Assembly (NCBI RefSeq): GCF_001652585.1
Contig: NZ_LWLG01000005.1
Span: forward strand, 1-32,000
Direction: 5' to 3'
From: Thermosulfurimonas dismutans
Lineage (GTDB): Bacteria; Desulfobacterota; Thermodesulfobacteria; Thermodesulfobacteriales; Thermodesulfobacteriaceae
Length of the DNA: 32,000 bases
The position numbers and the translations under genes are program-made. The notes beneath the pieces were generated by a model. It did not search any database and was not told where the DNA came from. It saw only the letters and a program-made list of their open reading frames with translations. Each line of letters opens with the position of its first letter. The first letter of the stretch is position 1. Shown here piece by piece: positions 8,610-31,407 of the stretch.

Positions 8610-8612
8610 ACT

Positions 8613-9556: not shown

Positions 9557-9584
9557 GATCATCTCCTTTACGATGGTATTTGTT

Positions 9585-11825: not shown

Positions 11826-11835
11826 GGTCTTGCTC

Positions 11836-16342: not shown

Positions 16343-18106
16343 ATGAAGCTTGATCCTACCAAGATGAAAGATTGGGAGATCGCAGCTGAGTGTGAAAAGA
16401 ATATGAAGACCGTCTATCAACTTGGAGAGGAGCTCGGTCTTACTAAGGAGGAGCTCCTTCCTTATGGACACTATGTAGCCAAGATCGACTACAAAAAGGT
16501 CCTTGAGCGGCTCAAAGATCGTCCGAATGGGAAATACATTGATGTCACCGCCATCACGCCTACCCCTCTGGGTGAGGGTAAATCTACCACCGCCATCGGA
16601 CTCATTCAGGGATTGGGAAAGCGCGGCAAAAAGGTCATCGGGGCTCTGCGTCAGCCATCCGGAGGCCCCACCTTTAATATTAAAGGTAGTGCCGCCGGAG
16701 GAGGACTCGCCCAGATCATTCCACTGGACAAATTCTCTTTAGGGCTTACCGGCGACATCAATGCCGTCATGAATGCCCACAATCTCGCCATGGTGGCTCT
16801 TACGGCCCGGATGCAGCACGAGGCCAATTACGACGACGAGACCCTGGCTAAGCGGGGCCTTAAGCGTCTCAACATCGATCCCAAACGGGTAGAGATGGGC
16901 TGGGTTATAGACTACTGTGCCCAGGCCCTCCGGCACATCGTAATCGGGCTCGGAGGCAAAAGGGACGGATATCCCATGGAAAGCAAGTTCTGGATCGCGG
17001 TGGCCTCCGAGGTCATGGCCATCCTGGCCGTGGCCCGGGACCTCAAAGATCTTCGGGAACGAATTGGAAAGATTGTGGTGGCCTTTGACAAATATGGCAA
17101 CCCCATCACCACCGAAGACCTCGAGGTGGCCGGAGCTATGACCGCCTGGTTGGTAGAAGCCATCAACCCCAACATGATCCAGACCTTAGAAGGACAGCCG
17201 GTCCTGATCCACGCCGGGCCGTTTGCCAATATCGCTATCGGTCAGTCCTCCATCATAGCGGATTACGTAGCCCTCAAGCTTGCGGACTACAACGTCACCG
17301 AATCCGGTTTCGCGGCTGATATCGGTTTCGAGAAGTTCTGGAACATCAAGTGTCGGCTCTCAGGACTGACTCCGGACTGCGTAGTGGTAGTGGCCACCAT
17401 ACGGGCCCTCAAGTGCCACGGAGGTGCTCCGATTCCTCCTCCGGGCAAACCTATTCCCAAAGAGTACTTCGAGGAAAACTTGGAATGGGTGGAGAAAGGG
17501 TGCGAAAACCTCATGCACTGTGTGAACATCGTAAAGAAGAGCGGCGCCACTCCGGTGGTCTGTATCAACGCCTTCCACACCGACACCAAGGACGAGATCA
17601 ACCTGGTCAAACGCATCTGTGAGGAACACGGCGTGCGGGCGGCCATCTCCGAACACTGGCTCAAGGGCGGCGAAGGAGCCCTTGAACTGGCGGACGCCGT
17701 AGTAGATGCTTGTGAGGAAAAGAGTGAGTTTAAGTTCCTCTACGAACTCGATGAGCCGGTGAAGACCCGTATCGAAAAGATAGCTACCGAGGTCTATGGG
17801 GCCGACGGTGTGGTGTATCTCCCCGCCGCGGAAGAGAAAATCAAACTCATCGAAGCCGATCCCGAACTTCGCCAGATGCCCATCTGCATGGTGAAGACCC
17901 ACCTCTCCCTCTCCGATAATCCCAATCTCAAAGGCGTACCCAAGGGGTGGCAGCTCCGCGTGCGCGACGTGCTGATCTATCGCGGTTCGGGATTTATCGT
18001 CCCGGTAGCCGGCGACATCAGCCTCATGCCCGGAACCGGTTCAGACCCGGCTTACCGTCGCATTGATGTAGACGTGGAAACCGGAAAGGTAAAGGGCCTC
18101 TTCTAA
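16343..18106 (+). CDS. fhs: Formate-tetrahydrofolate ligase
   Basis: The product is 587 aa. The P-loop region [12 protein letters not shown] and the whole-length pattern are typical of Fhs. The RBS is AAGGAGGGGG. Confidence 0.95.
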
Positions 18107-18121
18107 ATGAGGAGAAACGTT

Positions 18122-18148
18122 CCGGCCGGGGAGAAATTCCTCGGCCGG
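18122..18148 (+). terminator. Strong GC hairpin after fhs (possible terminator or mRNA stabiliser)
   Basis: The sequence CCGGCCGGGGA-GAAAT-TCCTCGGCCGG forms an ~11-bp stem starting 16 nt after the fhs stop. The trailing T tract is weak (GCTTTC), so termination efficiency is uncertain. Confidence 0.35.
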
Positions 18149-18272
18149 GCTTTCAAACCTTCAGTAAGGTACCCGAAAATTTTACAAAAGTATCATTAGT
18201 TACGATCACAATCAGATTGGCATGTATCTTGCTAACGTTAGTGTCTTTCGAAAGGACACAAGGAGGTAAAGT

Positions 18273-19175
18273 ATGGCGGCCAAAATCATAAGCGGCAAAG
18301 AAATCTCCAAAGAAATCCGGGAAGAGCTTAAAAAAGAGGTCCAGGAACTCAAGGAAAAACATGGTGTTACTCCGGGGTTGGTAACCATCTTGGTAGGCAA
18401 CAATCCGGCTTCGGTCTCCTATGTGACGGCCAAGCAAAAGGCCGCGCACGATCTAGGTTTTTATTCCGTTCAGGACAATCAACCTGAAGATATTAGTGAA
18501 GAGGCCCTACTGGATCTCATCAAAAAATACAACGAGGATCCTAAGATCCACGGTATTCTGGTGCAGCTTCCACTTCCTAAGCACATCGACGAGCGCAAGG
18601 TCATCTATGCCATCGATCCTCGAAAGGACGTAGACGGTTTCCATCCGGTAAATGTAGGTAAGATGGTGATCGGCGAGCCTTGCTTTTTGCCCTGCACTCC
18701 GCACGGCATATTGGTCATGCTCGAGCGGGCTGGAGTGGAAGTGGATGGAGCCGAGGTGGTGGTCGTTGGTCGGAGCAACATCGTGGGCAAACCGGTTGCC
18801 AACCTGCTTCTTCAGAAGCGGAAACCGGTAGGCAATGCCACGGTCACGGTCTGTCATACCGGAACGCGAGACATGGCCTTTCATACTCGGAGGGCCGACA
18901 TCCTGATCGTGGCGGCGGGGCGCCCTAAGGTCGTTACAGCGGACATGGTTAAAGAAGGGGTGGTGGTGATTGACGTCGGAGTAAATCGTATAGGAACCAC
19001 TCCGGAAGGCAAGGCCATCCTCTGTGGAGACGTGGATTTTGAGAGTGTCAAGGAGAAGGCCGCGGCCATTACCCCGGTTCCCGGTGGGGTAGGCCCCATG
19101 ACCATCACCATGCTCATGAAAAATACCGTGGAGGCAGCCAAGCTCTGGGCAGGACTTCCCTGTGAGGTGGCTTAG
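18273..19175 (+). CDS. folD: Bifunctional 5,10-methylene-THF dehydrogenase / 5,10-methenyl-THF cyclohydrolase
   Basis: The product is 300 aa. The motifs PGLVTILVGNNPASVSYV, GILVQLPLP, VVVVGRSNIVGKP and PVPGGVGPMT are canonical FolD. Confidence 0.95.
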   Translation: MAAKIISGKEISKEIREELKKEVQELKEKHGVTPGLVTILVGNNPASVSYVTAKQKAAHDLGFYSVQDNQPEDISEEALLDLIKKYNEDPKIHGILVQLPLPKHIDERKVIYAIDPRKDVDGFHPVNVGKMVIGEPCFLPCTPHGILVMLERAGVEVDGAEVVVVGRSNIVGKPVANLLLQKRKPVGNATVTVCHTGTRDMAFHTRRADILIVAAGRPKVVTADMVKEGVVVIDVGVNRIGTTPEGKAILCGDVDFESVKEKAAAITPVPGGVGPMTITMLMKNTVEAAKLWAGLPCEVA

Positions 19176-19221
19176 GTATAAATTTCAAAATTGAAATCAA
19201 TCTAAAGTTAGGAGGATTTTA

Positions 19222-21264
19222 ATGGATCCCAGGGCAAGAATGAAGGGTAAGAGGACGCCTAAAGTCCAGAACAAGACGGCTCAGGTTATTTACGAAAGTC
19301 TGGGCGAGGAAATTCTTACGGCTCCGGCTCGAGTGGAACGCCGAGGGACCACGCCCTGTCTCTTTGGTAAAGGGGGTACCTGTTGTCGGGTCTGTAACAT
19401 GGGCCCATGTCAGGTGGTGGAGGGCGTGGAAGAACTTAAAGGCGTCTGCGGAGCTAGTGCGGCTACGGTAGTGGCCCGGAACTTCGGACGTATGGTGGCC
19501 AGCGGTGGCTCAGCTCACTCGGATCATGGCCGGCAGGTGGCTATTGATTTTTATGAAACCGTTCATGGTGAGACGCCTTTTGAGGTCAAAGACAAACGCA
19601 AGTTGCGGGTGGTAGCTCAGGCTCTGGGAGTCGATCCCAATCAGGAAGAACCGGAACTTCTGAAACAGATAGCTGAGGTTGCTTTGAGGGTTTTTAACCA
19701 GCAGGAAGGTGAAATCCCCTTTATACGTCGGGCACCGGAGAAGAGGCAGGCCCTCTGGCGTGAGCTGGGGGTGGTGCCTCGGGGGGTAGATCGCGAGGTG
19801 GTAGAACTTCTCCACCGGACTACCATTGGTGTGGATCAAGACTACCGGAATATCCTTATGGCCTGTGCCCGCACGGCTCTGGCCGATGGCTGGGGCGGCT
19901 CTATGATCGCCACCGAGCTCCAAGACTTACTATTTGGCAATCCTGGGCCTATCAAGGCCAAAGTCAACATCGGCCTAAGCGTCATTAGGGAAGACATGGT
20001 GAACGTGGCCGTGCACGGGCACGAACCAGTTCTGGCCGAGGCTCTGGCCATGGCGGCTAGCGATCCCGAGATCGTGGAAGAGGCCAAGAAAGTTGGGGCG
20101 AAAGGCGTAAATCTCGCCGGTATCTGTTGCACTGGGAACGAGATCCTCATGCGACGCGGTATTCCGGTAGCCGGAAGCTTTTTACAGCAGGAAGCGGCCA
20201 TTGCTACCGGGGCTCTTGAGGCCGTAGTGGTGGATGTCCAGTGTATCATGCAGAACGTGGTCGAGATCGCCAAACACTTCCACACCGCGGTCATCACCAC
20301 CAATCCTCGGGCCAAGATGGAAGGTGGTATTCACTTGGAATTCGACGCCCGCAAGGCCCTTGATTGCGCCAAGGCCATCCTGCGGGAGGCCATCGCTAGA
20401 TTTCCGAAGCGGGATAAATCTAAGGTCAATATTCCGGATCATACCGTGGATGTGGTGGTGGGCTTCAGTCACGAGACTATCCTTTATATGTTAGGGGGAC
20501 GTTTCCGGGCTTCCTACAAGCCTTTAAACGAGAACATCATCAACGGTAAAATCCTCGGTGTGGCAGCCATCGTAGGTTGCGACAACTATAGGGTAACCGA
20601 AGAAATCCAGGTTGAACTGGCCAAGGAACTCATCGCCAACAATGTGCTGGTGCTCACCACCGGTTGCGCGGCTACTGGGCTTGGACGGGCCGGTTTATTG
20701 CGGCCTGAGGCCGCGGAATTAGCCGGAGACAGCCTCAGAGAGGTGCTTGAGGCCGTAGGCTGTCCTCCAGTGCTTCACATGGGCTCTTGCGTGGACAACA
20801 GCCGTATTTTGGTGGCGGCCAGCGAAATGGTCCACACCGGTGGCCTGGGAGAAGACGTAAATGAACTTCCGGTGGTGGGGTGTGCGCCTCAGTGGATGAG
20901 CGAAAAGGCCATTACCATCGGTCAGTATTTCGTGGCTTCCGGGGCTACCGTGGTCTTCGGTCCGGATTTTCCGACCCTACAGAGCCAAGTGGCTACGGAC
21001 TTTCTCTTCCATGAGATGGAGAAGATCTTCGGAGCCGCCTGGCGAGTGGCCAGAACCGCGGAAGAATTTGCCTCCATTATGATCGATCATATCAAAAACA
21101 AGCGCAAGGCCCTGGGTATCGACAAACCCAAACCCAGAGTGCTCTTCGATATGGCCATGCGTCGGGCCCTTGAGAGCCCGAAGGTCACCAGTCCTTTCCA
21201 CGGACTGGGCTGTTTTGGACCACTTAGTCTAAAGGTGAATCCGGAAGAAGAAAAGGCGGCTTAA
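19222..21264 (+). CDS. acsA: Ni-Fe carbon monoxide dehydrogenase catalytic subunit
   Basis: The product is 680 aa. The N-terminal Cys motifs [19 protein letters not shown] supply the D/B-cluster ligands, and later motifs include HGHEP and GICCTGNE. It lies in a cluster with acsB, acsC and acsD. Confidence 0.9.
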
Positions 21265-21286
21265 AAATCATGGAAGGAGGCTCTTA

Positions 21287-24200
21287 ATGGCCAAGAAATC
21301 GGGAAAAGTACTCGTGGTGGGGGGAGGTATCGCCGGGATCCAGACGGCCTTGGATCTCGCAGAGCTTGGCTATTACGTCTATCTAGTGGAGAAAAAGGCC
21401 ACCATCGGGGGGGTAATGGCCAAGCTGGATAAGACCTTCCCCACCAACGACTGTAGTATCTGAATACTGGCGCCCAAAATGGTGGAGGCCGGTCGGTCTC
21501 CCAATATCGAAATCCTCACTCTGGCGGAGGTAGAAAGTCTTTCCGGAAAACCGGGAAAGTTTAAAGCAAAGGTCAAAATTCGCCCTCGCTACATCGATCC
21601 AGATAAATGCACGGCTTGTGGTCAGTGTATGCAATACTGTCCGCGTGAGGCGGTGGACGAATACAACGAACGTCTAGATTTTACTCGGGCGGCTCGCATC
21701 GACTTTCCCCAGGCCGTGCCCACGGCCTATTACATCGACGAGGACCGTTGTCTCCAGCTCAACCACGAAACTTGTATGATCTGCACTAACGTCTGCGGTC
21801 CCAAGGCCATCGACTTCAATCAGGAACCAGAGATCCGGGAGCTTGAAGTTGGAGCGGTGGTGCTCTGTCCGGGCTTCGGGAACGTTCCAGAAGAGGCCCT
21901 TACGAAATATGGTTACGGAATCTATCCCGACGTTATGACCAGTCTTGAAATCGAACGTCTCATGTGTGTTTCCGGCCCCACGGAAGGCGAAATCATACGA
22001 CCTTCGGACTTTTCTCATCCCCGAAAGATCGCCTTTCTCCAGTGCGTAGGCTCAAGGGACGTTTCTTGTGGCCGTCCTTTCTGTTCCTCGGTCTGCTGTA
22101 TGTACGCCATGAAAGAGGCCTCCATGCTAAAAGAACATGCCCCGGAGGCCGAAATCGCTCTCTTTTTCATGGACGTGCGCACCCAAGGCAAAGGCTTCGA
22201 CGCCGCCTTTGAGCGGGCGGTAGACAAATACGGGTTCCGCGTGATCAAGGCCAGGGTGCCCAAGGTAGAACAGGTGGACGGGCGTCTGGCCTTGAACTAT
22301 GTCACCGAAGAGGGCACGGTTCACCGGGAACTTTTCGATCTGGTGGTGCTCTCGGTAGGTCTTTCAGCCCCGGAAGGTGCTGAAGAGTTGGCCAAAAAGT
22401 TCGGAATTGAGCTCAATCCCTTCGGTTTTGCCAAAACCGAAGTCAAAGACCCGCTCACTGCCAAATCCGGCATATATGTGGCTGGTGCCTTCCATGGACC
22501 TAAGGACATTCCAGAAAGCGTCATGCAGGCCAGCGGTGCAGCGGCCAAGGTCTCGGAATTGCTAGCTGAGGCCCGGGGCCAGGACATGGTCGAAAAGGAG
22601 TTCCCGCCCGAGGATCAAGAACTCCTTGAGATGCCGGTGAGGGTGGGAGTCTTCGTGTGTCACTGTGGGGTAAACATTGCTGGAGTGGTGGACGTTGAGG
22701 CCGTAAGAGACTACGCCAAGTCCCTTCCTGGGGTGGTCTATGCCGAAAACGTACTCTATTCCTGCGCTCAGGACTCTCTTGAAAAACTCAAGGAGAAAAT
22801 CAAGGAACACAAACTAAACCGATTGGTGATTGCGGCCTGCAGTCCACGCACCCATGAACCCCTATTTCAGGAGACGCTGCGGGAGGCCGGGCTCAACCTG
22901 GCTTTGGTGGAAATGGCCAACATCCGAGACCAATGTTCCTGGGTGCACGCCGACGACCCTGAGAAAGCCACTCAGAAGGCTAAGGACCAAGTACGCATGG
23001 CGGTGGCCAAGGCTCGGAGATTGAAGCCACTTGAACTCCAGAAGGTCAAGGTTACGCCTTCGGCACTGGTCATCGGTGGAGGGGCTGCTGGTATGGCAGC
23101 CGCCCTTTCCATCGCGGATCAGGGCTATGAGGTACATCTTGTTGAAAAGGAGGCTGAGCTTGGAGGTCACTTGCGCCGGGTGAAATTTCTTGCTGAAGGC
23201 GAGAACCCGCAGAAGATCCTAAAGGATCTCATCACACGGGTGGAAAAACACGAAAATATTCGAGTTTACAAATCGGCTTCGGTGGAAAATATCTCGGGTT
23301 ATGTCGGAAACTTTACCTCTACTATTAAGGTCAAAGAGGGCTCAAAAGTCATAAACCACGGAGTGGTGGTGGTAGCCACCGGAGCTAAAGAACATAAACC
23401 TAGTGGATATCTTTACGGAAAGAACCGCAAGATACTCACGCAGCTTGAACTTGAGGAGAAGCTTTCGCGCGGCAAGCGTGGTTTGGGAAAGACCCGCCGG
23501 GTAGTCATGATCCAGTGTGCTGGTTCGCGGGGGGAGGAGTTGCCCCACTGTAGCAAGCTCTGTTGTCAACAAGCGGTCAAAAACGCCCTGCGTATCAAAG
23601 AGCTCTCCCCGGAGACGGAGGTTTTCATCTTCTATCGTGATATGCGAACTTACGGTTTTTATGAGGAACTTTACCGCAAAGCCCGCAACCAGGGGGTGAT
23701 CTTCCTCCGCTATGAGCCTACTCAGCGGCCCGAAGTGCTAAAGAAAGGACGAGGGATCGTGGTTCGGGGCTATGACGCCCTTCTGGGGGAAGAGATCGAG
23801 ATTCCTGCGGACCTAGTGGTGCTTTCGGTAGGCGTGGCTCCAGACAAAGAGAACCCCATCGCTCAGATCCTCAAGACCCCGATGACCGACGAGGGTTTCC
23901 TCATGGAGGCCCACGTAAAACTCCGTCCGGTGGAAGTAGCCGTAGATGGAGTTTACATCTGTGGTCTGGCCCACGGGCCCAAGCCCTTGGAGGAGACCCT
24001 GGCCCAGGCCAAGGCTGCGGCTGGCAAGGCGGTAATCCCGTTGGCCAAGGGGTTCGTAGAGGTTCCGCCGATCGTCTCTCGGGTAGAAGAAAAGAAGTGT
24101 ATCGGTTGTGGTATCTGCGCTTCCCTTTGTCCTTATAACGCCATTGAGATGGTCAAAAAGGAGAAACGCCGCAAGGCCCAAGTGATCGCAGCGGCCTGTA

Positions 24201-24352
24201 AGGGCTGTGGTGTCTGCGGTTCACACTGTCCGGTCTTCGCCATTACTCTGGGCGGCTTTACCGACGAAGCCATACTGGAACAGATCCAGGCCTTTGGACT
24301 TCCAGAGGCCGAAGAATCCAAAGAGGCTGAATTGGAAAAAGAAGCGGCTTAA
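21287..24352 (+). CDS. hdrA: HdrA-like flavoprotein, double length, with in-frame UGA (Sec) at 21461-21463
   Basis: The ATG at 21287 lies 7 nt after GGAGG and opens the same frame as track ORF 21479..24352. The translation is [71 protein letters not shown]. The UGA replaces the second Cys of the conserved HdrA DCSMC motif. A second GGGAAG dinucleotide fold and a C-terminal 2x[4Fe-4S] motif are present. Confidence 0.85.
21484..21501 (+). promoter_or_regulatory. Candidate bacterial SECIS hairpin for hdrA
   Basis: GGAGGCC-GGUC-GGUCUCC forms 7 bp including one G-U pair, and begins 20 nt after the UGA. The GGUC apical loop is the same tetranucleotide I recall from the E. coli fdhF SECIS loop. Confidence 0.5.
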
Positions 24353-24364
24353 GGAGGGGTTAGG

Positions 24365-25084
24365 ATGCAATTTGAACCCAGGATTTTAAGTTTTCTTTGC
24401 AACTGGTGTTGTTATGCAGCAGCGGATTCGGCGGGAGTGGCCCGGTTCAGTTACCCTCCGAACAACCGGGTCATCCGGATTATGTGTACTGGCAGGATGG
24501 ATCCCCAGTTCGTAGTAGAGGCCTTTTATGTTCGTGCTGACGGCGTTTTCGTAGGCGGGTGACACTTGGGAGAGTGCCATTACCAGTCTGGTAATTACGA
24601 AGCTCTAGTCATGGCGGAGACCGTAAGGCGAATCTTGGATACAGTGGGTATCAACCGGGAGCGTTTTACTATCGACTGGGCCTCCGCGGCGGAAGGCCCC
24701 CGTTTCGTAAAGCTTTTGACTGAATTCACTGAAAAAATAAAGACTATGGGCCCTCTGGGCGAGGCCGAGGGCTTGGATTGGGAAACCCTCAAGTTCCGGC
24801 TTGAAGCCGCTCGCAATCTCTGTAAAAATATGCAATTTCGAGCCCAGTACGGTAATCTGGCCAAAGAGATAAAGAAGTTGGGAGACTATAGTCCGGAGAA
24901 CATCTCCCAGGCGATAGAAAAGAAACTGGTGCCCCAGATAAGGAAGAGAATCTTCGAGGCCGAGCTCAAGGAACTTATAGCTCAGGGTCCCCAGGCGGTG
25001 GAAGTCCTCAGGGAGAAGACCGGGGCTACGGAAGAAGAAATCGGGGCCATTCTTGAAACCCTGAAAAAGAAGGAGAAAAAGTGA
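24365..25084 (+). CDS. mvhD: MvhD-family (methyl-viologen-reducing hydrogenase delta subunit-like) protein with in-frame UGA (Sec) at 24560-24562 and a C-terminal extension
   Basis: Track ORFs 24365..24562 and 24566..25084 are in the same frame and are separated only by TGA-CAC. The joined sequence reads ...ADGVFVGG-U-HLGECHYQSGNY..., against the MvhD consensus GGCHxGDCHY. The N-terminal FLCNWCCYAAADSAG is a typical MvhD motif. Confidence 0.8.
24579..24595 (+). promoter_or_regulatory. Candidate SECIS hairpin for mvhD
   Basis: AUUACC-AGUCU-GGUAAU forms 6-7 perfect bp with a loop containing GU. It begins 16 nt after the last base of the UGA. Confidence 0.45.
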
Positions 25085-25626
25085 TGGAACTTACGGTAGA
25101 AAAAAACTGGGTTTCCGAGGTCAAGAGTCTTCCCGAGACTTTGGCTCAGTGTTTTCGGTGTGGGGCTTGCTCGGGAATCTGTCCAGTAAAGCGCATCCGT
25201 AAAGACTTCGATCCTCGTGTGATTGTCCATGCCACCATCTTAGGGATAAAAGACAAGCTCTTTGGTACGCCTATCCTTTGGCACTGCTCTCAGTGTCAGA
25301 GCTGTGTGCCGGTGTGCCCCATGGAGGTAAAGCCGGCTGAGGTTATCAAAGCCCTGAGGGACTATGCCCTTAAAGAAGGCCTGGCCAGCGAGGAGACCCT
25401 CTTTGAGGCCGGAAGATTGGCCAGGGTCAATCCTAAAAAGTGCATTGTATGTCTCACCTGTGTGCGGGTGTGCCCCTTCGGGGCGCCAAGCATCAAAGAC
25501 GAAGGTTATGCGGTTATCGATCCGGCCAAGTGTCACGCCTGCGGTATTTGTGTGCAAGAATGTCCGGCCCGGGCCATAGAGCTTCATCCCGCGGCCGAAT
25601 TTGCCACTTACAAATGGGGGGTTTAG
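25084..25626 (+). CDS. Four-cluster-motif 4Fe-4S protein (HdrC-like N-terminal half plus ferredoxin-like C-terminal half)
   Basis: The Cys motifs are CFRCGACSGICP, CSQCQSCVPVCP, CIVCLTCVRVCP and CHACGICVQECP. The ATG at 25084 overlaps the mvhD stop (TGATG). No CCG (HdrB-type) motif is present. Confidence 0.7.
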   Translation: MELTVEKNWVSEVKSLPETLAQCFRCGACSGICPVKRIRKDFDPRVIVHATILGIKDKLFGTPILWHCSQCQSCVPVCPMEVKPAEVIKALRDYALKEGLASEETLFEAGRLARVNPKKCIVCLTCVRVCPFGAPSIKDEGYAVIDPAKCHACGICVQECPARAIELHPAAEFATYKWGV

Positions 25627-25632
25627 TAAGCG

Positions 25633-26034
25633 ATGGCCGATATCAAGATTGGAATCCTCTGTTGTCATTACACCAATACCTCGGACGAGGAAGACTTTAA
25701 GGGTCTGCCCGCGGACGTGATCATGAAACGTTTCCCCTGCTCCGGCCACATTGAAGTGGCGGATATCCTCAAGACCTTTGAGGAAGGAGCCGAGGCCGTG
25801 TTGGTGGCCGGCTGCGAGAAGGACAGTTGCCACAATATTTCGGGAAGCGTGCGGGCGGAAAAGCGGGTCCTAGGAGCCCGGAAAATTTTGGAAGAAATTG
25901 GCCTTTCTGGCGAAAGAGTCAGAATGGCCTTTGTACCCCGATTGGATTCGGGAACATTTATGACCGAAGTAAAATCCCTATTCGAGATTGCTTTAAATTT
26001 GAAGTCTAAGTCCAAAGGAGATGGGCAAAAATGA
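25633..26034 (+). CDS. Second MvhD-family protein (Cys version)
   Basis: The product is 133 aa. The motifs ILCCHYT and ...EAVLVAGCEKDSCHNISG align with the Sec-containing paralogue (GG-U-HLGE-C-H against AG-C-EKDS-C-H). Confidence 0.7.
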   Translation: MADIKIGILCCHYTNTSDEEDFKGLPADVIMKRFPCSGHIEVADILKTFEEGAEAVLVAGCEKDSCHNISGSVRAEKRVLGARKILEEIGLSGERVRMAFVPRLDSGTFMTEVKSLFEIALNLKSKSKGDGQK

Positions 26035-26702
26035 TAATTGCAGAAAGAAAACCCATTCCCAAGGTGTTAAAGGCTATCGAGCCTTATGACAAAGTGCTGG
26101 TGTTAGGGTGTCGGGGCTGCGTGGCCATTTGTTCGGCCGGAGGCGACCGGGAGGTCGAGACCATAGCTGCGGCCTTGAGGCTGGCCAGAAAGCTTTCCGG
26201 AAGGCCGCTTGAGACCGGAGAGGCCACGCTCATTCGGCAGTGCGATCCAGAGTATCTGGCCGTGCTTCCAGAGATGGCCAAAGATTACCAGGCCGTGGTG
26301 TCTTTGGCCTGTGGGGTAGGGGTCAATTTGATTGCGGATCTTTATCCTGAGATTCGGGTTTATCCGGGCGTGGATACCTCTTTTTACGGGGCCAACTCGG
26401 CCTTAGGAGAATGGCAAGAAAAATGTCGGGGTTGTGGAGACTGTATCCTGGATATCACAGGTGGCCTCTGTCCCATCGCCCGGTGTGCCAAAAATCTTTT
26501 GAATGGACCCTGCGGGGGGTCCCAAGGCGGACGTTGTGAGATCCGTCCAGAGGTCCCCTGTGTGTGGCACCAGATCTACGAGAGGCTTTCTTCCCGGGGC
26601 GAGCTTGAGCGGTTGCTCAACTTCTTCCCGGCCAAGGACTGGCGTCCGGCCGGACATGGAGGTCCCCGGGAGAGGATAAGAGAAGACCTGCGTATGGGAT
26701 AA
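26031..26702 (+). CDS. metV: MetV (MTHFR C-terminal-domain-like small subunit of methylene-THF reductase)
   Basis: The product is 223 aa. The motifs MIIAERKP, LGCRGCVAIC, CRGCGDCIL, GGLCPIARCAKNLLNGPCGG and CxW match my recollection of Moorella MetV. The start overlaps the upstream stop (ATGA). Confidence 0.75.
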   Translation: MIIAERKPIPKVLKAIEPYDKVLVLGCRGCVAICSAGGDREVETIAAALRLARKLSGRPLETGEATLIRQCDPEYLAVLPEMAKDYQAVVSLACGVGVNLIADLYPEIRVYPGVDTSFYGANSALGEWQEKCRGCGDCILDITGGLCPIARCAKNLLNGPCGGSQGGRCEIRPEVPCVWHQIYERLSSRGELERLLNFFPAKDWRPAGHGGPRERIREDLRMG

Positions 26703-26727
26703 AAACGGGTAGAAAAGGAGGGGAAGG

Positions 26728-29169
26728 GTGGAGCCTAGAAGCCATCTTCAAAAAGTTCTTTCCGAAGGGCACTTCGCCGTTACCGCAGAGATCGGCCCTC
26801 CCAAGAGTGCTGATGGAGAGGTCGTAAGAAAGAAGGCCCGGATTCTCAAAGGTTACGTGGACGCGGCCAACATCACCGACTGTCAGACGGCTATTGTCCG
26901 GATGTCCTCCATTGCTTCGGCGGTGTTGGTGATGGCTGAAGGGGTAGAGCCGGTCATCCAGATGACTTGCCGCGACCGGAACCGGATCGGTATCCAGGCC
27001 GATCTCCTAGGGGCGGCGGCCCTGGGGGTAAAGAATCTCCTTTGTATCACCGGTGACCACCAGAAGTTCGGGAATCATCCCGAGGCCAAAGGGGTCTTCG
27101 ATCTGGACTCCATCCAACTTACGGCCATGGTGCGCCAGATGAGGGACGAGGGTAAGTTCCTCTGCGGGGAAGAACTCACTGGTGCCCGGCCAGAATTTTT
27201 TATCGGGGCGGTGGAGAATCCCTTTGCCGATCCTTTTGAATTCAGGGTAAAGCGGCTGGAAAAAAAGGTCAAAGCCGGAGCGGAATTCATCCAGACCCAG
27301 ATTATCTACAACGTAGAGCGTTTCAAGAAGTTTATGGAGATGGCCCGAGATTTAGGGCTCACGGAGAAGGTCTATATCCTGGCCGGGATCACGCCTCCCA
27401 AGTCCTTCGGTATGGCCCGTTACATGAAGTATTTTGTGCCGGGCTTGGACGTACCAGACGAGATCCTCAAGCGCATGAAAGAGGCCAAGGACAAACGGGA
27501 GGAAGGTATCAACATTGCGGTAGACATCATTCAACAGGTACGCGAGATCCCGGGCGTGGCCGGCGTACACATCATGGCCATCGAATGGGAAGAGGCCGTC
27601 CCTGAGATCGTAAAACGGGCCGGGCTCCATCCGAGACCGCTTGAGGCTGAGGTCAAGCCGGCCATTGCAGTAGAAGTCGAACGTCCTGAAAAGATTGAAG
27701 TGGTGGCCCCACCCAAAGAGGAGGAAGAAGTGGCCGAAGGGCCGCCTAAGATAGAGATCCCCGTAGAGGCCGTCAAAGAGGTCTTTTCCTCGGTGCGTTC
27801 AAGCATCGAGTCCCTGCGTGAAGGTATCAATCTCCTTCATGACAGTTTGGCCAGGCTTGAGCGTGCTCTCCTTGGTGGAGAGGTGGTCCCGGCGGAGGTG
27901 CCGCAGGTAGAGGTCAAGGTGGAAGAGAAACCGGTGGTAGAGGAAAAACCTGCGGAAGAAGAGAAACCGGCGGTGGAAGAGAAGCCGGTAGAGGAGATCA
28001 AGAAAGAAGTCAAACCAGAAGAAGAGAAGCCGGAAGAAAAACCGACTGAAGAAGAGCCCGAGGCCAAACCGATTGCAGAAGAACCCAAGGCTGCAGAACC
28101 TAAGCCGGAAGAGAAGCCGGCGGTGGAAGAGAAGCCGGCGGCTCCAGCTGGGCCTCCGCCTGAAGGTGTGGAACTTGGTGGCTTTATAGGTGAGTACCGT
28201 CCGCTTTCCGAACGAGCGGCGGGGCTCCCCGAGGATCTCTATAAAGATCCGGGTACGGCTTTCATACGGGAGGTAGAGATCGGTAAGGGCGAAAAGGCCT
28301 TCAAGGTTGGTGGTACCAACGTGCTCCCCTTCCAGCTCTTTGAAGGCGAGATGAAAAACCAGCCTCGCATTGCCATGGAGGTCCTAGACGTAAAGCCTGA
28401 AAACTGGCCGGAGAGCCTGGCCAAATATTTCGAGGACGTCTTTGACGATCCTGCGGCCTGGGCCAAAAAGTGCGTGGAGACCTACGGAGCCGAGGCCGTA
28501 TGTGTATATCTCATGGGTACAGACCCCAACTATCTGGACTTGGATGCCAAGCATGCCCGGGAAGTAGTAGAGAAGGTCGTCAAGGCCGTGGACGTGCCCA
28601 TCGTGGTCTGGGGTGCTGGACATGCGGAGAAAGACGTGGAGGTTTTGAGGGAAGTGGCCGAGATCCTTGGAGATCGTGGAGCAGTCATTGGTCCGGTGGA
28701 GGAGGCCAATCATCGTACCTTGGGGGCCACGGCCATGGGTTACGGGCTCCCGGTAGTGGCGACGAGCCCTATCGACGTGAACCTAGCCAAGCAGTTGAAC
28801 ATCCTCCTTGAGAATATTGGAGTGTCACTCGACAAGATCCTGATGGACCCTTCCATCGGAGCCCTAGGTTACGGTCTGGAGTACACCTACTCGGTGATGG
28901 AACGTATTAGGCTTGCGGCCCTTTACGCCCAGGACGAAAAGCTCCAGGTGCCTTTTGTCTGTAACGTGGGGCGCGAAGTCTGGAAGACCAAAGAAGTGGG
29001 GCTTCCCACCGACGAGATACTGGGCGACCAGGAGGTTCGCGGCGTCCTCATGGAGGCCATTACCTCGGTGGCTTTGGCGCTGGCCGGAGGCGATCTTTTT
29101 ATCATGCGTCATCCCAAAGCCATTGAGCTAACAAAGACGATTATAAGCGCTCTTATGCAAGAAAATTAA
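26728..29169 (+). CDS. metF: Fusion protein: MetF (methylene-THF reductase, aa 1-~302), a Glu/Lys/Pro-rich linker, then AcsD (corrinoid Fe-S protein small subunit, aa ~510-813)
   Basis: This is a single uninterrupted 813-codon ORF with a GTG start after AAAGGAGGGGAAGG. The N-terminal part has MetF motifs (AVTAEIGPP, CRDRN, LCITGD, FIGAVENPF, FIQTQ). The C-terminal part aligns along its length with my recollection of M. thermoacetica AcsD (LPFxxFEGE, AMEVxD, SPIDxNxxKQLNILxxxxG, DPSIGxLGYGxEYxxSxMERIRL, MRHP). Confidence 0.85.
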   Translation: MEPRSHLQKVLSEGHFAVTAEIGPPKSADGEVVRKKARILKGYVDAANITDCQTAIVRMSSIASAVLVMAEGVEPVIQMTCRDRNRIGIQADLLGAAALGVKNLLCITGDHQKFGNHPEAKGVFDLDSIQLTAMVRQMRDEGKFLCGEELTGARPEFFIGAVENPFADPFEFRVKRLEKKVKAGAEFIQTQIIYNVERFKKFMEMARDLGLTEKVYILAGITPPKSFGMARYMKYFVPGLDVPDEILKRMKEAKDKREEGINIAVDIIQQVREIPGVAGVHIMAIEWEEAVPEIVKRAGLHPRPLEAEVKPAIAVEVERPEKIEVVAPPKEEEEVAEGPPKIEIPVEAVKEVFSSVRSSIESLREGINLLHDSLARLERALLGGEVVPAEVPQVEVKVEEKPVVEEKPAEEEKPAVEEKPVEEIKKEVKPEEEKPEEKPTEEEPEAKPIAEEPKAAEPKPEEKPAVEEKPAAPAGPPPEGVELGGFIGEYRPLSERAAGLPEDLYKDPGTAFIREVEIGKGEKAFKVGGTNVLPFQLFEGEMKNQPRIAMEVLDVKPENWPESLAKYFEDVFDDPAAWAKKCVETYGAEAVCVYLMGTDPNYLDLDAKHAREVVEKVVKAVDVPIVVWGAGHAEKDVEVLREVAEILGDRGAVIGPVEEANHRTLGATAMGYGLPVVATSPIDVNLAKQLNILLENIGVSLDKILMDPSIGALGYGLEYTYSVMERIRLAALYAQDEKLQVPFVCNVGREVWKTKEVGLPTDEILGDQEVRGVLMEAITSVALALAGGDLFIMRHPKAIELTKTIISALMQEN
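27883..28161 (+). repeat. In-frame low-complexity (E/K/P/V/A) repeat region inside the metF-acsD linker
   Basis: The peptide is ...VEVKVEEKPVVEEKPAEEEKPAVEEKPVEEIKKEVKPEEEKPEEKPTEEEPEAKPIAEEPKAAEPKPEEKPAVEEKPAAPAGPP. It includes an exact 22-nt DNA repeat, CCGGCGGTGGAAGAGAAGCCGG, at 27967-27988 and 28117-28138. Confidence 0.8.
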
Positions 29170-29184
29170 AGGAGGTTGCGAGCT

Positions 29185-31407
29185 ATGTCCAAGATCATTG
29201 CTAGCGCGGCCATTCGTGGGGCTCATAAGATTGTGGAACGGGCCCAAGAAAAATATGAGGAGGCCGTGAAGAAATTCGGAAAGGATACCGAGGTCGCTTT
29301 CCCGAACACGGCCTATTATCTGCCCATCATTTATGCCATGTTGGGTTATCCGGTAAAAAAGCTCGGAGATTGCGGAGAAGTTCTGGAAGAGGCCAAGCGC
29401 CTGCTGCCTCCGGTGCCCACAGACGAGCTCTGGACCCCTTATCTGGGGCCGGCGCTCGATGCCGGTATGGCTACTTTCTTTGCGGAAGAGATCATTGAGG
29501 CCATCCGCTATCTGGAGGATCCCAATTTCTACACCAAAACTGAGGAGCCAGTTAATGGAAACATTTGGCTTGGAGCGGCCGACGACGTGATCTTTCGTAA
29601 ACGTGGAGTGGAATTTGTGGATGGCACGGCTCCAGGGTTTGCAGCCATTCTCGGCGCTCCGCCGAACAAAGAAATTGCCGTCAAGATCGCCCAGGAGCTC
29701 CAGGAAAAGAACCTCTACGTCTTCATGCATTCAGACACCAACGGGGTGCGTATGGCCGAACAGCTTAAAGAGGCTGGGGTTCAGCTCGGCTGGCCCACCC
29801 GTTTGGTTCCCTTCGGTCCGGACACCACCTCGGTGGTCTTCGCTATCGGCTTTGCCTGCCGGGTAGCTATGGCCTTTGGTGGTATCAAACCCGGAGACTA
29901 CATGGGTAACCTCCTTTATAACAAAGACCGAACCTTTGCCTTCGCCATAACTTTCGGTCCGGTTTCCGACGAATGGTACGCCAATGGAGCCGGGGCCATC
30001 AACTGGGGCTTCCCGGTGATCTCCGACTGGGACATCCCTGAGATCAAGCCCTTTGGGGTGTGTACTTACGAACACGTGGTCTCCAAGGTGCCCCACGAAG
30101 AGATCGTGGACCGAGCCATTGAAGTCCGAGGGCTCAAGGTCACCACGGTGAAGCTCGACATCCCGGTAGCCTATGCCCCGGCTTTTGAAGGGGAAAGGGT
30201 CCGTAAGGACGATCTCTATCTGGAGTGCGGTGGTGGAAGGACTCCGGCAGTTGAACTCCTGATCTCCAAGCCCCTTGAGGAAGTGGAAGACGGAAAGATC
30301 GAGGTCATAGGCCCTGAAATAAACGAGGTGGAAAAGCTTGGCATAAAAGGACCTCCCTATCGTTTACCCTTTGCAGTAGTGGTGGAAGTAGCTGGAGCTA
30401 ACATGCAGGAGGACTTCGAGGCTATTCTTGAGCGGCAATTCCATCACCTCATCAACTACGCCCAGGGTATCATGCACGTAGGGCAACGTAATATCATGTG
30501 GCTGCGGATCAGTAAGGCTGCTGTAGAAAAAGGATTCCTCTTCAAGCACATCGGGGAGATCCTTTACGCCAAGATGCGCCAAGAGTTCGGCGCCATCGTG
30601 GACAAGTGCCAGGTGACCATCTATACCGAAGAAGAGAAGGTCAAGGAGATCCTGGAGCTGGCCAAGGAGGTCTATACCCGGCGTGACGAACGGATAGCCG
30701 GTATGACTGACGAGACCGTAGACGTGTACTATTCCTGCACTCTGTGTCAAAGCTTTGCACCCAGCCACGTGTGCGTAATCACGCCGGAACGGATCGGTAT
30801 GTGCGGGGCCTACAACTGGCTCGACGGCAAGGCCTGCTACGAGATCAATCCCACTGGTCCCAACCAGCCTATTGAAAAAGGTGAGGTTATTGACGAGAAG
30901 CTAGGACAGTTCTCCGGTATAAACGAGTTCGTGAAGAAGGCCTCCAGAGGGAAGGTAGAAAGGGTGAGCCTTTACAGTATCATGGTAGACCCCATGACGG
31001 CCTGCGGATGTTTCGAGTGTATTGCAGCCATGTTGCCCTCGGTAAACGGCATCATGATCGTAAACCGTGATTATCTTGGCATGACTCCCTCGGGCATGAA
31101 GTTTTCTACCATGGCCGGTATGGTGGGTGGCGGTCAGGTGACCCCCGGTTTCATGGGGGTCTCTAAGCACTATATCACCTCTCGGAAATTTCTTATTGCC
31201 GAAGGGGGGCTTAAACGGGTGGTCTGGATGCCCAAGATGCTCAAAGAAGAACTTAAAGACAAGCTCAAGCAGCGGGCCGAAGAGCTGGGGATCCCCGATC
31301 TCATCGACAAGATTGCAGACGAGACTGTGGCCTCTACGGAACAAGAAGTCAAGGAATGGGTGGAAAAGGTCAAACACCCGGTTCTAGAGATGGAACCCTT
31401 GATGTAA
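29185..31407 (+). CDS. acsB: Acetyl-CoA synthase (A-cluster subunit of CODH/ACS)
   Basis: I prefer the ATG at 29185, 9 nt after AAAGGAGG, over the track TTG at 29176. The sequence closely parallels my recollection of M. thermoacetica AcsB throughout (NTAYYLPII, GPAFEGERVRK, GQRNIMWLRISK, YSCTLCQSFAPSHVC, TACGCFEC, PMTPSGMKFST). Confidence 0.92.
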   Translation: MSKIIASAAIRGAHKIVERAQEKYEEAVKKFGKDTEVAFPNTAYYLPIIYAMLGYPVKKLGDCGEVLEEAKRLLPPVPTDELWTPYLGPALDAGMATFFAEEIIEAIRYLEDPNFYTKTEEPVNGNIWLGAADDVIFRKRGVEFVDGTAPGFAAILGAPPNKEIAVKIAQELQEKNLYVFMHSDTNGVRMAEQLKEAGVQLGWPTRLVPFGPDTTSVVFAIGFACRVAMAFGGIKPGDYMGNLLYNKDRTFAFAITFGPVSDEWYANGAGAINWGFPVISDWDIPEIKPFGVCTYEHVVSKVPHEEIVDRAIEVRGLKVTTVKLDIPVAYAPAFEGERVRKDDLYLECGGGRTPAVELLISKPLEEVEDGKIEVIGPEINEVEKLGIKGPPYRLPFAVVVEVAGANMQEDFEAILERQFHHLINYAQGIMHVGQRNIMWLRISKAAVEKGFLFKHIGEILYAKMRQEFGAIVDKCQVTIYTEEEKVKEILELAKEVYTRRDERIAGMTDETVDVYYSCTLCQSFAPSHVCVITPERIGMCGAYNWLDGKACYEINPTGPNQPIEKGEVIDEKLGQFSGINEFVKKASRGKVERVSLYSIMVDPMTACGCFECIAAMLPSVNGIMIVNRDYLGMTPSGMKFSTMAGMVGGGQVTPGFMGVSKHYITSRKFLIAEGGLKRVVWMPKMLKEELKDKLKQRAEELGIPDLIDKIADETVASTEQEVKEWVEKVKHPVLEMEPLM

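What the first reader, a model, noticed from the sequence alone, without database searches (positions are those of the whole stretch)
21287..24352. HdrA homologue is a selenoprotein that the ORF track truncates
The track starts this gene at 21479. The same frame is open from an ATG at 21287 with a good RBS, and it encodes the canonical HdrA N-terminus (GGGIAG FAD fold, [10 protein letters not shown]). The frame is interrupted only by TGA at 21461-21463, the position of the second Cys of the conserved DCxMC motif.

A 7-bp hairpin with a GGUC loop (21484-21501) follows at a SECIS-compatible distance. Sec-containing HdrA is known from methanococci and from some sulfate-reducing and syntrophic bacteria. 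Standard callers miss it and lose the first 64 codons, including the FAD-binding fold. The full protein is 1021 residues long and has two dinucleotide-binding folds.
Basis: partly seen in the sequence, partly recalled or inferred. Interest (0 to 1): 0.7.

Follow-up and report, generated by a model that had tools for sequence, protein, structure and literature searches.

The report
Selenocysteine HdrA gene truncated by annotation
A large flavoprotein gene in the carbon-fixation operon of the vent bacterium Thermosulfurimonas dismutans contains an in-frame UGA that almost certainly encodes selenocysteine, so databases list it 64 residues too short; this is a correct but ordinary case of a long-known selenoprotein family.

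Summary
An ORF from ATG 21287 (GGAGG 6 nt upstream) is broken only by TGA 21461-63 and runs to 24352, giving 1021 residues. The window is from Thermosulfurimonas dismutans, whose nr entry is the truncated 957-aa form.

Across 115 HdrA-like genes in 80 related loci plus the window, this codon is TGC (48), TGT (28) or TGA (39), and nothing else. The hairpin at 21484-21501 meets all four published bacterial SECIS criteria. So do 36/39 Sec-type genes, against 1/76 Cys-type genes. Synonymous sites inside the hairpin are frozen.

The residue aligns with Cys197 of solved HdrA, which is Sec197 in Methanococcus maripaludis. The protein is a fused double HdrA, like Geobacter BamE, inside a Wood-Ljungdahl operon.

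The next gene (MvhD-like, 24365-25084) is a second missed selenoprotein, with TGA at 24560.

HdrA and MvhD/FrhD have been listed as bacterial selenoprotein families since 2006. This is therefore a new, mis-annotated member of a known kind.

The parts
21274..21280 (+). Ribosome-binding site AAGGAGG for the true start
   Evidence: Read from the sequence; 6 nt before ATG 21287.
21287..24352 (+). Full coding sequence of the fused double-HdrA selenoprotein (1021 aa plus TAA stop)
   Evidence: translation. Residues 6-428 match the NCBIfam HdrA2 profile as one stretch across the TGA. Pfam domains. Homologues.
21452..21454 (+). Cys56 codon (TGT), partner of Sec59 in the C-x-x-U motif; equals Cys194 of HdrA and Cys59 of BamE
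   Evidence: The Cys-Sec pair is seen in M. maripaludis HdrA, and a Cys59-Cys62 disulfide in BamE.
21461..21463 (+). In-frame UGA, inferred selenocysteine codon (residue 59)
   Evidence: Census TGC 48 / TGT 28 / TGA 39 at this codon. Aligns to residue 197 of 5ODC HdrA, which is Sec197 in M. maripaludis.
21484..21501 (+). Bacterial SECIS hairpin GGAGGCC-GGUC-GGUCUCC; the loop (21491-94) starts 27 nt after the UGA
   Evidence: dG -11.0 kcal/mol, and all four bSECIS criteria are met. Third-codon-position entropy is 0-0.55 bit in codons +8 to +12, against 1.5-1.9 bits in the codons either side of the hairpin and 1.85-1.95 bits at the same codons in Cys-type genes. 88.8 % of cells are paired, against 32-62 % when the partner is slid.
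21287..22576 (+). Module 1 (aa 1-430): thioredoxin-reductase-like FAD domain with C56/U59 and an inserted ferredoxin domain; no N-terminal Fe-S domain
   Evidence: Aligns to HdrA 145-566 of 5ODC. Fer4 matches at residues 102-170.
22637..24349 (+). Module 2 (aa 451-1021): HdrA N-terminal [4Fe-4S] domain, a second TrxR-like FAD domain lacking the DCxxC motif and the inserted ferredoxin, and a C-terminal 2x[4Fe-4S] ferredoxin
   Evidence: Aligns to 5ODC HdrA 4-235 and 340-648. Where HdrA has [12 protein letters not shown] it has [13 protein letters not shown].
24353..24359 (+). RBS GGAGGGG of the MvhD-like gene
   Evidence: 5 nt before ATG 24365.
24365..25084 (+). MvhD/FlpD-like partner gene (239 aa), a second selenoprotein that ORF calling truncates
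   Evidence: The read-through protein matches Pfam FlpD 1-123/123 at 163 bits, against 59 bits and profile positions 63-123 only for the truncated ORF.
24560..24562 (+). In-frame UGA (residue 66) in the motif GG-U-HLGECHY of the MvhD-like gene
   Evidence: Census TGA 34 / TGC 35 / TGT 19 at this codon. It co-occurs with Sec in HdrA: U/U 29, C/C 46, C/U 3, U/C 0.
24579..24595 (+). Conserved hairpin AUUACCA-GUC-UGGUAAU, 23 nt from the UGA to the loop
   Evidence: 32/34 Sec-type genes use the codons CAT TAC..GGT AAT, against 0/53 Cys-type genes. dG is only -4.5 kcal/mol, which fails the bSECIS energy criterion.
16343..31407 (+). Operon context: fhs, folD, cooS, hdrA-like, mvhD-like, Fe-S protein, mvhD, metV, metF(-cdhD-like), acsB (Wood-Ljungdahl pathway)
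   Evidence: Pfam. The same gene order is found in Sec-type loci L001-L008, L015, L017, L020 and L024.

Best explanation
The gene at 21287-24352 of Thermosulfurimonas dismutans encodes a 1021-residue selenoprotein.

Decoding. UGA 21461-63 is decoded as selenocysteine (Sec59) by the standard bacterial route. A SelB-GTP-Sec-tRNA(Sec) complex binds the coding-region SECIS hairpin at 21484-21501 and delivers Sec to the ribosome when the UGA is in the A site. This mechanism is inferred from the anatomy; it is not shown here.

The protein. It is a fused double HdrA of the BamE type. Module 1 carries the (probably bifurcating) FAD, the C56-x-x-U59 pair and the inserted ferredoxin. Module 2 supplies the N-terminal-type [4Fe-4S] domain that module 1 lacks, a second FAD domain without the Cys pair, and the C-terminal ferredoxin. 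One chain therefore mimics the HdrA homodimer.

Role of Sec59. By homology with HdrA Cys/Sec197, Sec59 sits between the FAD and the N-terminal-domain cluster. It acts either as the fourth ligand of that cluster or, together with Cys56, as a redox-active selenenylsulfide relay. This question is unresolved even in the solved enzymes.

Probable function (inferred). Together with the adjacent Sec-containing MvhD-like adaptor, a polyferredoxin, a second MvhD and MetV/MetF, the protein most likely forms a flavin-based electron-bifurcating or confurcating complex that drives methylene-tetrahydrofolate reduction in the Wood-Ljungdahl pathway. Gene callers stop at the UGA and restart at ATG 21479, which loses the FAD-binding fold.
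For: - Sequence anatomy and RBS.
- Continuous HdrA profile and structure-sequence alignment across the UGA.
- The source protein in nr is the 957-aa truncated form. 96/120 closest homologues are truncated, and the full-length ones have Cys at the site.
- The codon is only TGC, TGT or TGA in 115 genes, and all 39 TGA genes stay in frame with conserved flanks.
- All four published bSECIS criteria are met.
- 36/39 Sec-type genes pass those criteria, against 1/76 Cys-type genes.
- Synonymous sites are frozen only inside the hairpin and only in Sec-type genes.
- Other stem sequences occur at the same place: L053b GGAUGUC/GGCAUCC, with a G-C to U-A double change, and L059 GAGUCU/AGACAC. A second hairpin family, CUGGUCG-AGGU-CGGCCGG, sits 5 nt upstream in 16 genes.
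- TGA is a normal stop for other genes in the operon.
- There is a second in-frame TGA at a conserved Cys with its own conserved hairpin in the next gene, and it co-varies with the HdrA TGA.
- These are the only two read-through candidates with a hairpin in all six frames of the window.
- The site equals Sec197 of M. maripaludis HdrA and Cys62 of BamE.
- The two modules are complementary, as described in PMC9012536.
- Wood-Ljungdahl synteny is conserved among Sec-type orthologues.
- HdrA and FrhD/MvhD are established bacterial selenoprotein families.
Against: - selA, selB, selC and selD were not verified. The T. dismutans assembly is not in the accessible contig collection, the window has no tRNA, and no sel genes or tRNA-Sec lie in the fetched loci.
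- The genome paper never mentions selenoproteins.
- Taken alone, the hairpin is not statistically unusual (z = 0.13; 4.5 % of TGA triplets have one).
- Within the window-type hairpin family, support comes from conservation rather than covariation. There is one compensatory pair, and 62/500 shuffles reach the observed covariation score.
- The sequences compared are phylogenetically related, so the Fisher p-values overstate independence.
- Rfam has no matching family.
- No proteomic or 75Se evidence is available.
- The physiological role (MetVF coupling) rests on synteny and on analogy with Moorella. No HdrB (CCG-domain) subunit is encoded in the cluster.
Confidence: 0.93

Rival explanations
1. 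The annotation is right. The gene starts at ATG 21479, and the 58 upstream codons are a decayed remnant or an independent small ORF ending at a genuine TGA stop (a pseudogenised N-terminus or a sequencing error).
For: This is how nr lists the protein (957 aa). TGA is a normal stop codon in this genome. The Sec machinery was not verified.
Against: The truncated protein would lack the GxGxxG FAD-binding fold of module 1. The TGA and the flanking residues KTFPTNDCS[IL]*IL[AS]PK are conserved in 38 other genes from many lineages, which is incompatible with decay or error. A strong RBS precedes 21287 but not 21479. The hairpin's synonymous sites are under selection only in TGA-bearing genes.
Confidence: 0.02
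2. The UGA is read through, but not as selenocysteine. Examples are near-cognate Trp or Cys insertion, or Cys carried by tRNA-Sec, with the hairpin acting only as a read-through stimulator.
For: The inserted residue was not identified here, and the Sec machinery was not verified. A Cys at the site would be functional, since 76 homologues have Cys.
Against: The hairpin meets the SelB-type bSECIS model, including the G[G/U] loop signature and the spacing. The same site is a structurally observed Sec in M. maripaludis HdrA. HdrA and MvhD/FrhD are established selenoprotein families. If Cys were wanted, a single-base TGA-to-TGC/TGT change would give it, yet TGA is retained in 39 genes.
Confidence: 0.04
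3. Termination at the UGA is functional. The cell makes a 58-residue peptide and a separate 957-residue protein that assemble non-covalently (a split gene).
For: ATG 21479 lies 15 nt after the UGA and could in principle restart translation.
Against: There is no RBS before 21479. In relatives the first ATG/GTG/TTG after the UGA varies in position, and some called starts are 20-60 residues further on, so a restart site is not conserved. A 58-residue fragment carrying half a Rossmann fold is unlikely to fold on its own. The conserved hairpin overlaps the supposed restart region.
Confidence: 0.01

Closest known systems
HdrA of Methanococcus maripaludis / methanococci (Sec197), structures of HdrABC-Mvh/Vhu (5ODC, 8RVU; PMC13518236)
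   Same: Same family and the same residue. Sec59 here aligns to residue 197, in the motif DKTFPT(N/L)DCSxC/U-ILAPK. The partner Cys three residues upstream is present. The TrxR-like FAD domain and inserted ferredoxin are the same.
   Different: The archaeal enzyme is a 650-aa homodimer-forming subunit with its SECIS in the 3' UTR, and it reduces CoM-S-S-CoB through HdrBC. Here there is a 1021-aa fused pseudo-dimer, a bacterial coding-region SECIS, no HdrB in the operon and no CoM/CoB metabolism. The NCBIfam HdrA2 score (1012) is below the family cut-off of 1100.
BamE/BamF of the class II benzoyl-CoA reductase of Geobacter metallireducens (bioRxiv 10.64898/2026.04.10.717634)
   Same: BamE is a fused HdrA dimer with two TrxR modules, only the N-terminal one carrying the bifurcating FAD and the Cys59-Cys62 pair. 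BamF is an unusually long MvhD-like adaptor that is a selenoprotein. A 58 %-identical homologue is annotated 'bamE' (P0107). The architecture is confirmed.
   Different: BamE has Cys, not Sec, at the site. BamF's Sec is residue 19, in the N-terminal motif, whereas here the MvhD-like Sec is residue 66 in GG-U-HxGECHY. The genomic context here is Wood-Ljungdahl/MetVF, not BamBCD-GHI.
HdrA-MvhD-MetFV complex genes of Moorella thermoacetica (Zhang et al. 2006, PMC1794560; discussed in PMC9012536)
   Same: HdrA and FrhD/MvhD are listed as selenoproteins in Moorella. Its HdrA is a fused double HdrA with complementary loss of Cys197 and the N-terminal domain, and it is clustered with metV/metF. The pathway context is the same.
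   Different: Moorella also encodes HdrB and HdrC in the cluster. Here only a 181-aa polyferredoxin (partly HdrC-like) is present, with no CCG-domain protein.
Bacterial SECIS consensus (bSECISearch model; E. coli fdhF prototype)
   Same: A stem-loop in the coding region just 3' of the UGA, a 4-nt loop starting GG-U, a 7-bp stem, 27 nt spacing and dG -11 kcal/mol. All model constraints are met.
   Different: There is no sequence similarity to the E. coli element. The MvhD-like gene's hairpin next door is AU-rich and fails the energy threshold.

Membership tests
Bacterial selenoprotein gene (UGA + bSECIS) | In-frame UGA at a position occupied by Cys in homologues | tested here: met
   TGC 48 / TGT 28 / TGA 39 at the codon and nothing else. 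The full-length database homologues have Cys there.
Bacterial selenoprotein gene (UGA + bSECIS) | Apical loop of 3-9 nt and upper stem of 4-16 bp | tested here: met
   Loop GGUC (4 nt) and a 7-bp stem, of which 6 bp are conserved. Criteria from PMC13188914.
Bacterial selenoprotein gene (UGA + bSECIS) | G in one of the first two loop positions (G[G/U] signature) | tested here: met
   The loop is GGUC. In 19/21 window-type sequences the codon supplying the loop's first three bases (GGU) is GGT.
Bacterial selenoprotein gene (UGA + bSECIS) | 16-37 nt between the UGA and the apical loop | tested here: met
   27 nt.
Bacterial selenoprotein gene (UGA + bSECIS) | Hairpin free energy <= -7.5 kcal/mol | tested here: met
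   -11.0 kcal/mol at 37 C, and -5.1 kcal/mol when computed at 74 C.
Bacterial selenoprotein gene (UGA + bSECIS) | Genome encodes selA, selB, selD and tRNA-Sec | not testable with these tools
   The T. dismutans assembly is not retrievable and there are none in the window. Indirect support comes from the second Sec candidate in the operon.
Bacterial selenoprotein gene (UGA + bSECIS) | Selenium physically incorporated at the site | not testable with these tools
   This needs 75Se labelling or mass spectrometry.
HdrA (heterodisulfide reductase subunit A) superfamily | TrxR-like FAD domain with GxGxxG and the DKTFPTxDCxxC motif | tested here: met
   Residues 6-428 align to HdrA 145-566 with E about 1e-124. 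The motif is present with U at the last position.
HdrA (heterodisulfide reductase subunit A) superfamily | N-terminal [4Fe-4S] domain, inserted ferredoxin and C-terminal ferredoxin domains | tested here: met
   All are present but split between the two fused modules.
Methanogen CoB-CoM heterodisulfide reductase HdrA/HdrA2 (NCBIfam NF040770, NF041778) | Score above the curated family cut-off | tested here: not met
   1012 bits against a cut-off of 1100 for HdrA2, and 741 against 1400 for HdrA. It is HdrA-like, not a bona fide CoB-CoM reductase subunit.
Methanogen CoB-CoM heterodisulfide reductase HdrA/HdrA2 (NCBIfam NF040770, NF041778) | Partner HdrB (CCG-domain catalytic subunit) encoded alongside | tested here: not met
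   None of the operon proteins scanned with Pfam in the window matches a CCG domain.
BamE-type fused double HdrA | Two HdrA modules in one chain with complementary domain loss (the Cys pair in one module, the N-terminal Fe-S domain in the other) | tested here: met
   The pattern is described.
BamE-type fused double HdrA | Association with BamB/C tungsten benzoyl-CoA reductase and BamGHI | tested here: not met
   The neighbours are Wood-Ljungdahl genes. The AOR-family gene at 2157-3917 is 17 kb away on the other strand.
MvhD/FlpD (FrhD) selenoprotein family (neighbouring gene) | Full-length FlpD domain with UGA at a conserved Cys | tested here: met
   Pfam FlpD 1-123/123 at 163 bits after read-through. 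Census TGA 34 / TGC 35 / TGT 19.

The most novel reading that the evidence does not exclude
In T. dismutans and a clade of thermophilic Thermodesulfobacteriota, the methylene-THF-reducing step of autotrophic CO2 fixation depends on two selenocysteines, HdrA-like U59 and MvhD-like U66. The whole Wood-Ljungdahl operon would then be selenium-dependent. The Sec form is the orthologue-specific ancestral state of the Wood-Ljungdahl-linked enzyme, while the nearest Cys forms serve other pathways. The MvhD-like gene would also use a conserved AU-rich hairpin that falls outside the standard bSECIS energy model and is predicted to be nearly unfolded at about 74 C. That would imply a distinct SelB-recognition mode in thermophiles.
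Probability: 0.35. Interest if true: 0.4.

Novelty: new member of a known kind. Interest (0 to 1): 0.25.

Why it matters
The practical value is in annotation. The public protein record for this gene lacks its FAD-binding N-terminus and is named only 'FAD-dependent oxidoreductase'. The same error affects 96 of the 120 closest homologues, and also the adjacent MvhD-like gene. Metabolic reconstructions of Wood-Ljungdahl carbon fixation in sulfur-disproportionating thermophiles therefore miss an HdrA/MvhD electron-bifurcation module and its selenium requirement.

Biologically it adds another natural Cys/Sec pair at HdrA residue 197, whose role is still debated (cluster ligand or selenenylsulfide relay). 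It also gives a clean example of a SECIS hairpin constraining both codon choice and amino-acid sequence: ...EAGRSPN in the window-type Sec genes, against mostly GRH/N/D at the corresponding positions in Cys-type genes.

It does not reveal a new kind of system.

Tried and rejected
- Rfam gathering scan of the window: no hits. This was expected, because these coding-region bacterial SECIS elements match no Rfam family.
- tRNA scan of the window and ARAGORN on all 80 loci: no tRNA-Sec.
- Three attempts to retrieve the T. dismutans contig beyond the window, to reach the fdhA gene TDIS_1010 and possibly sel genes: the assembly is not in the collection.
- MccSep paper: it lists a T. dismutans homologue (TDIS_RS01570) but does not say whether it is Sec or Cys, and no supplements are held.
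- Look-up of a U-containing full-length protein in the cluster database: the tool rejects 'U'.
- Single-sequence folding statistics: uninformative.
- Covariation within the window-type hairpin family: weak, because the stem is almost invariant. The argument therefore rests on synonymous-site conservation, the Sec-versus-Cys contrast and the alternative stems in other lineages.
- Global TGA reassignment: considered and rejected, because other operon genes end in TGA.
- I ran no further search on SelD/SelB. Only the best 120 hits are listed, so a query from a distant species would not surface the T. dismutans orthologue.
Full report
**1. The observation**

- AAGGAGG lies at 21274-80, and ATG at 21287-89 follows 6 nt later.
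- A single frame of 1022 codons runs to TAA 24350-52. It is interrupted only by TGA at 21461-63, which is codon 59.
- The mechanically called ORF starts at ATG 21479, which is codon 65 of the same frame.
- The N-terminal 58 codons read [58 protein letters not shown], a dinucleotide-binding fold followed by the HdrA motif.
- The hairpin GGAGGCC-GGUC-GGUCUCC occupies 21484-21501.
- Pfam finds two Rossmann-type FAD/NAD folds, at residues 7-41 and 594-629.

By itself the hairpin is not remarkable. The local fold is no better than shuffled sequence (z = 0.13), and 41 of 905 TGA triplets in the window are followed by a hairpin that passes the same rules. The case rests on comparison with other genes.

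**2. Source and database state**

A 100 %-identical nr entry, 'FAD-dependent oxidoreductase [Thermosulfurimonas dismutans]', is 957 aa, which is the truncated call. Of the 120 closest homologues, 96 are 890-972 aa and 24 are 1004-1058 aa. The short ones mostly begin just after the site ([29 protein letters not shown]). The long ones read KTFPTNDCS[IL]C-ILAPK. The T. dismutans genome paper lists the neighbouring Wood-Ljungdahl genes but contains no occurrence of 'seleno'.

**3. Codon census**

I fetched 80 related loci from one genome per species. I then read the codon at this position in every HdrA-like gene in those loci and in the window. The result was TGC 48, TGT 28, TGA 39, and no other codon.
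- All TGA genes are bacterial: Thermodesulfobacteriota, several 'Deltaproteobacteria' MAGs, Desulfobacteraceae and one Deferribacteres MAG. All the archaeal homologues have Cys.
- All TGA genes stay in frame, with highly conserved residues on both sides of the TGA.
- This excludes a sequencing error, a pseudogene or an independent N-terminal ORF.
- TGA also ends two other genes of the operon, so the code is not reassigned globally.

**4. The SECIS**

The published bacterial SECIS model requires four things (PMC13188914): a 3-9 nt apical loop on a 4-16 bp stem, a G in the first two loop positions, 16-37 nt between the UGA and the loop, and dG <= -7.5 kcal/mol. The window hairpin has a 4-nt GGUC loop, 7 bp, 27 nt spacing and -11.0 kcal/mol.

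Applying the same test to every gene, 36/39 Sec-type and 1/76 Cys-type genes pass.

In the 21 Sec-type genes that share the window's stem, codons +8 to +12 after the UGA (GAG GCC GGU CGG UCU) have third-position entropy of 0-0.55 bit. The codons either side of the hairpin have 1.5-1.9 bits, and the same codons in Cys-type genes have 1.85-1.95 bits. The hairpin even fixes the amino acids: these genes read EAGRSPN, whereas Cys-type genes mostly have H (also N or D) in place of the Ser.

With the structure imposed, 88.8 % of cells pair, against 32-62 % when the 3' partner is slid by 1-3 columns. The outermost pair holds in only 10/23 sequences, so the conserved stem is 6 bp. Covariation inside this family is thin: one compensatory G-C to U-A change, in L053b.

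Other lineages carry different stems at the same place. L059 has GAGUCU-GCC-AGACAC. Sixteen Desulfobacteraceae-type genes share CUGGUCG-AGGU-CGGCCGG, shifted 5 nt upstream.

**5. What the residue is**

Residues 6-428 align to solved HdrA structures with E about 1e-124 to 1e-125. Residue 59 corresponds to residue 197 of 5ODC.
- In the crystal structure, Cys197 is the fourth ligand of the N-terminal-domain [4Fe-4S] cluster of the partner subunit (PMC9012536).
- In the 2026 M. maripaludis cryo-EM structure the residue is Sec197. It is seen linked to its neighbouring Cys and is proposed to act as a selenenylsulfide relay between the FAD and cluster A3. The authors state that its role is unresolved (PMC13518236).
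- In Geobacter BamE the same pair is Cys59-Cys62. It forms a disulfide in one state and approaches cluster E3 to about 3.5 A (preprint).

**6. Architecture**

Module 1 (aa 1-430) has the TrxR-like domain, the C56/U59 pair and the inserted ferredoxin, but no N-terminal Fe-S domain. Module 2 (aa 451-1021) aligns to HdrA 4-235 and 340-648. It has the N-terminal Fe-S domain and the C-terminal ferredoxin, lacks the inserted ferredoxin, and has [13 protein letters not shown] where HdrA has [12 protein letters not shown].

This is the complementary 'self-heterodimer' pattern reported for fused HdrAs, for the Moorella MetFV-associated HdrA and for BamE.

The protein scores below the NCBIfam cut-offs for genuine methanogen HdrA and HdrA2, and no CCG-domain HdrB is encoded nearby. 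It should be called HdrA-like rather than a heterodisulfide reductase subunit.

**7. Context and a second selenoprotein**

The + strand from 16343 to 31407 encodes fhs, folD, cooS, this gene, an MvhD-like gene, a polyferredoxin, a second mvhD, metV, a metF fusion and acsB. The same order recurs in Sec-type loci L001-L008, L015, L017, L020 and L024. The nearest Cys-type relatives lack these neighbours.

The MvhD-like gene is also truncated by ORF calling.
- From ATG 24365 it reads MQFEPRILSFLCNWCCY...VFVGG-[TGA 24560]-HLGECHY... and continues to 25084.
- Read-through raises the Pfam FlpD match from profile positions 63-123 (59 bits) to 1-123 (163 bits).
- Across the loci, the codon is TGA 34, TGC 35 or TGT 19.
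- Sec in HdrA and Sec in the downstream MvhD go together: U/U 29, C/C 46, C/U 3, U/C 0.
- Its hairpin, AUUACCA-GUC-UGGUAAU (24579-24595, 23 nt spacing), is built from the His-Tyr and Gly-Asn codons. 32/34 Sec-type genes use CAT TAC..GGT AAT, and none of 53 Cys-type genes do.
- At -4.5 kcal/mol the hairpin fails the energy criterion.

A six-frame scan of the window finds no other read-through candidate with a hairpin.

**8. Mechanism, and what is shown versus inferred**

*Shown:* an in-frame UGA at an invariant Cys/Sec codon; a hairpin that fits the SelB-type model and is under RNA-level selection only in UGA-bearing genes; a second such gene in the operon; and homology of the site to a structurally observed Sec.

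*Inferred:* SelB-dependent Sec insertion; the redox or ligand role of Sec59; and the physiological role as an electron-bifurcating module feeding MetVF.

*Not testable here:* the presence of selA/B/C/D in the genome and physical selenium incorporation.

**9. Novelty**

Zhang et al. 2006 already rank FrhD/MvhD and HdrA third and fourth among bacterial selenoprotein families. They list both in Moorella, Syntrophobacter, Carboxydothermus and others, and they note hdrA-hdrA fusions. The 2026 review repeats this.

The finding is therefore a correct identification of a new, mis-annotated member of a known kind. It is valuable for annotation and gives a tidy example of SECIS constraints, but it would not surprise a specialist.

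Noticed in passing
window 24365-25084 (TGA 24560-62; hairpin 24579-24595): The next gene, a long (239 aa) MvhD/FlpD-like protein, is a second selenoprotein candidate that ORF calling truncates to its C-terminal part. The UGA replaces the Cys of GG-C-HxG[DE]CHY. The census across the loci is TGA 34 / TGC 35 / TGT 19, and it co-occurs tightly with Sec in HdrA.
   Followed up: yes
window 24579-24595 and 33 related Sec-type MvhD genes: The MvhD hairpin (AUUACC-loop-GGUAAU) is strongly conserved at the codon level (32/34 Sec-type genes against 0/53 Cys-type genes). It is AU-rich, at only about -4.5 kcal/mol at 37 C and about 0 when computed at 74 C, so 33/34 fail the standard bSECIS energy threshold. 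It may belong to a distinct SECIS class, or it may need a lower stem or SelB for stability.
   Followed up: partly
window 21485-21499 (codons +8 to +12 after the UGA) and related loci: The SECIS constrains the protein. The 21 Sec-type genes that share the window's stem all read EAGRSPN (GAG GCC GGU CGG UCU), whereas Cys-type genes mostly have H, also N or D, in place of the Ser and use codons freely. A second Sec-type family (16 genes, mostly Desulfobacteraceae) uses a different hairpin, CUGGUCG-AGGU-CGGCCGG, 5 nt closer to the UGA and reads EVGRH.
   Followed up: partly
public protein databases (15 hit list): There is systematic mis-annotation. 96 of the 120 closest homologues in a 5.8-billion-protein collection are N-terminally truncated calls, most starting just after the Sec codon. 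They carry generic names such as 'FAD-dependent oxidoreductase'.
   Followed up: yes
window 26728-29169: A single 813-aa ORF combines an N-terminal MTHFR (MetF) domain (residues 7-299) with a C-terminal CdhD/AcsD-like domain (515-756). At the 1e-10 threshold used, the C-terminal part matched in only 3 of the related loci (L001, L005, L023), while the MetF part matched in 22. A MetF-corrinoid-protein fusion would be unusual, but I did not examine it further.
   Followed up: partly
window 21287-26702: The HdrA-like/MvhD/MetV/MetF cluster contains no CCG-domain HdrB. It has only a 181-aa polyferredoxin (25081-25626) whose N-terminal part matches the Fer4_8 and Fer4_17 dicluster families. This differs from the Moorella hdrCBA-mvhD-metVF arrangement.
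   Followed up: partly
L069 (Candidatus Delongbacteria MAG) 3811, 9757, 13275: One locus carries three Sec-type MvhD-like genes next to a Cys-type HdrA. These are probably the three C/U cases of the 78 HdrA-MvhD pairs that break the Sec/Sec co-occurrence; I did not trace the pairs individually.
   Followed up: no
window 4929-13935, minus strand: A copper-handling cluster: two P-type ATPases (815 and 699 aa), one with two HMA domains, a 746-aa multicopper oxidase and a small HMA-domain protein. It lies next to an aldehyde:ferredoxin oxidoreductase gene (2157-3917) with its Fe-S partner (3904-4347).
   Followed up: no
window 29176 vs 29185: The ORF list starts acsB at TTG 29176, immediately after AGGAGG. 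An in-frame ATG at 29185, 9 nt after that RBS, is the more plausible start.
   Followed up: no
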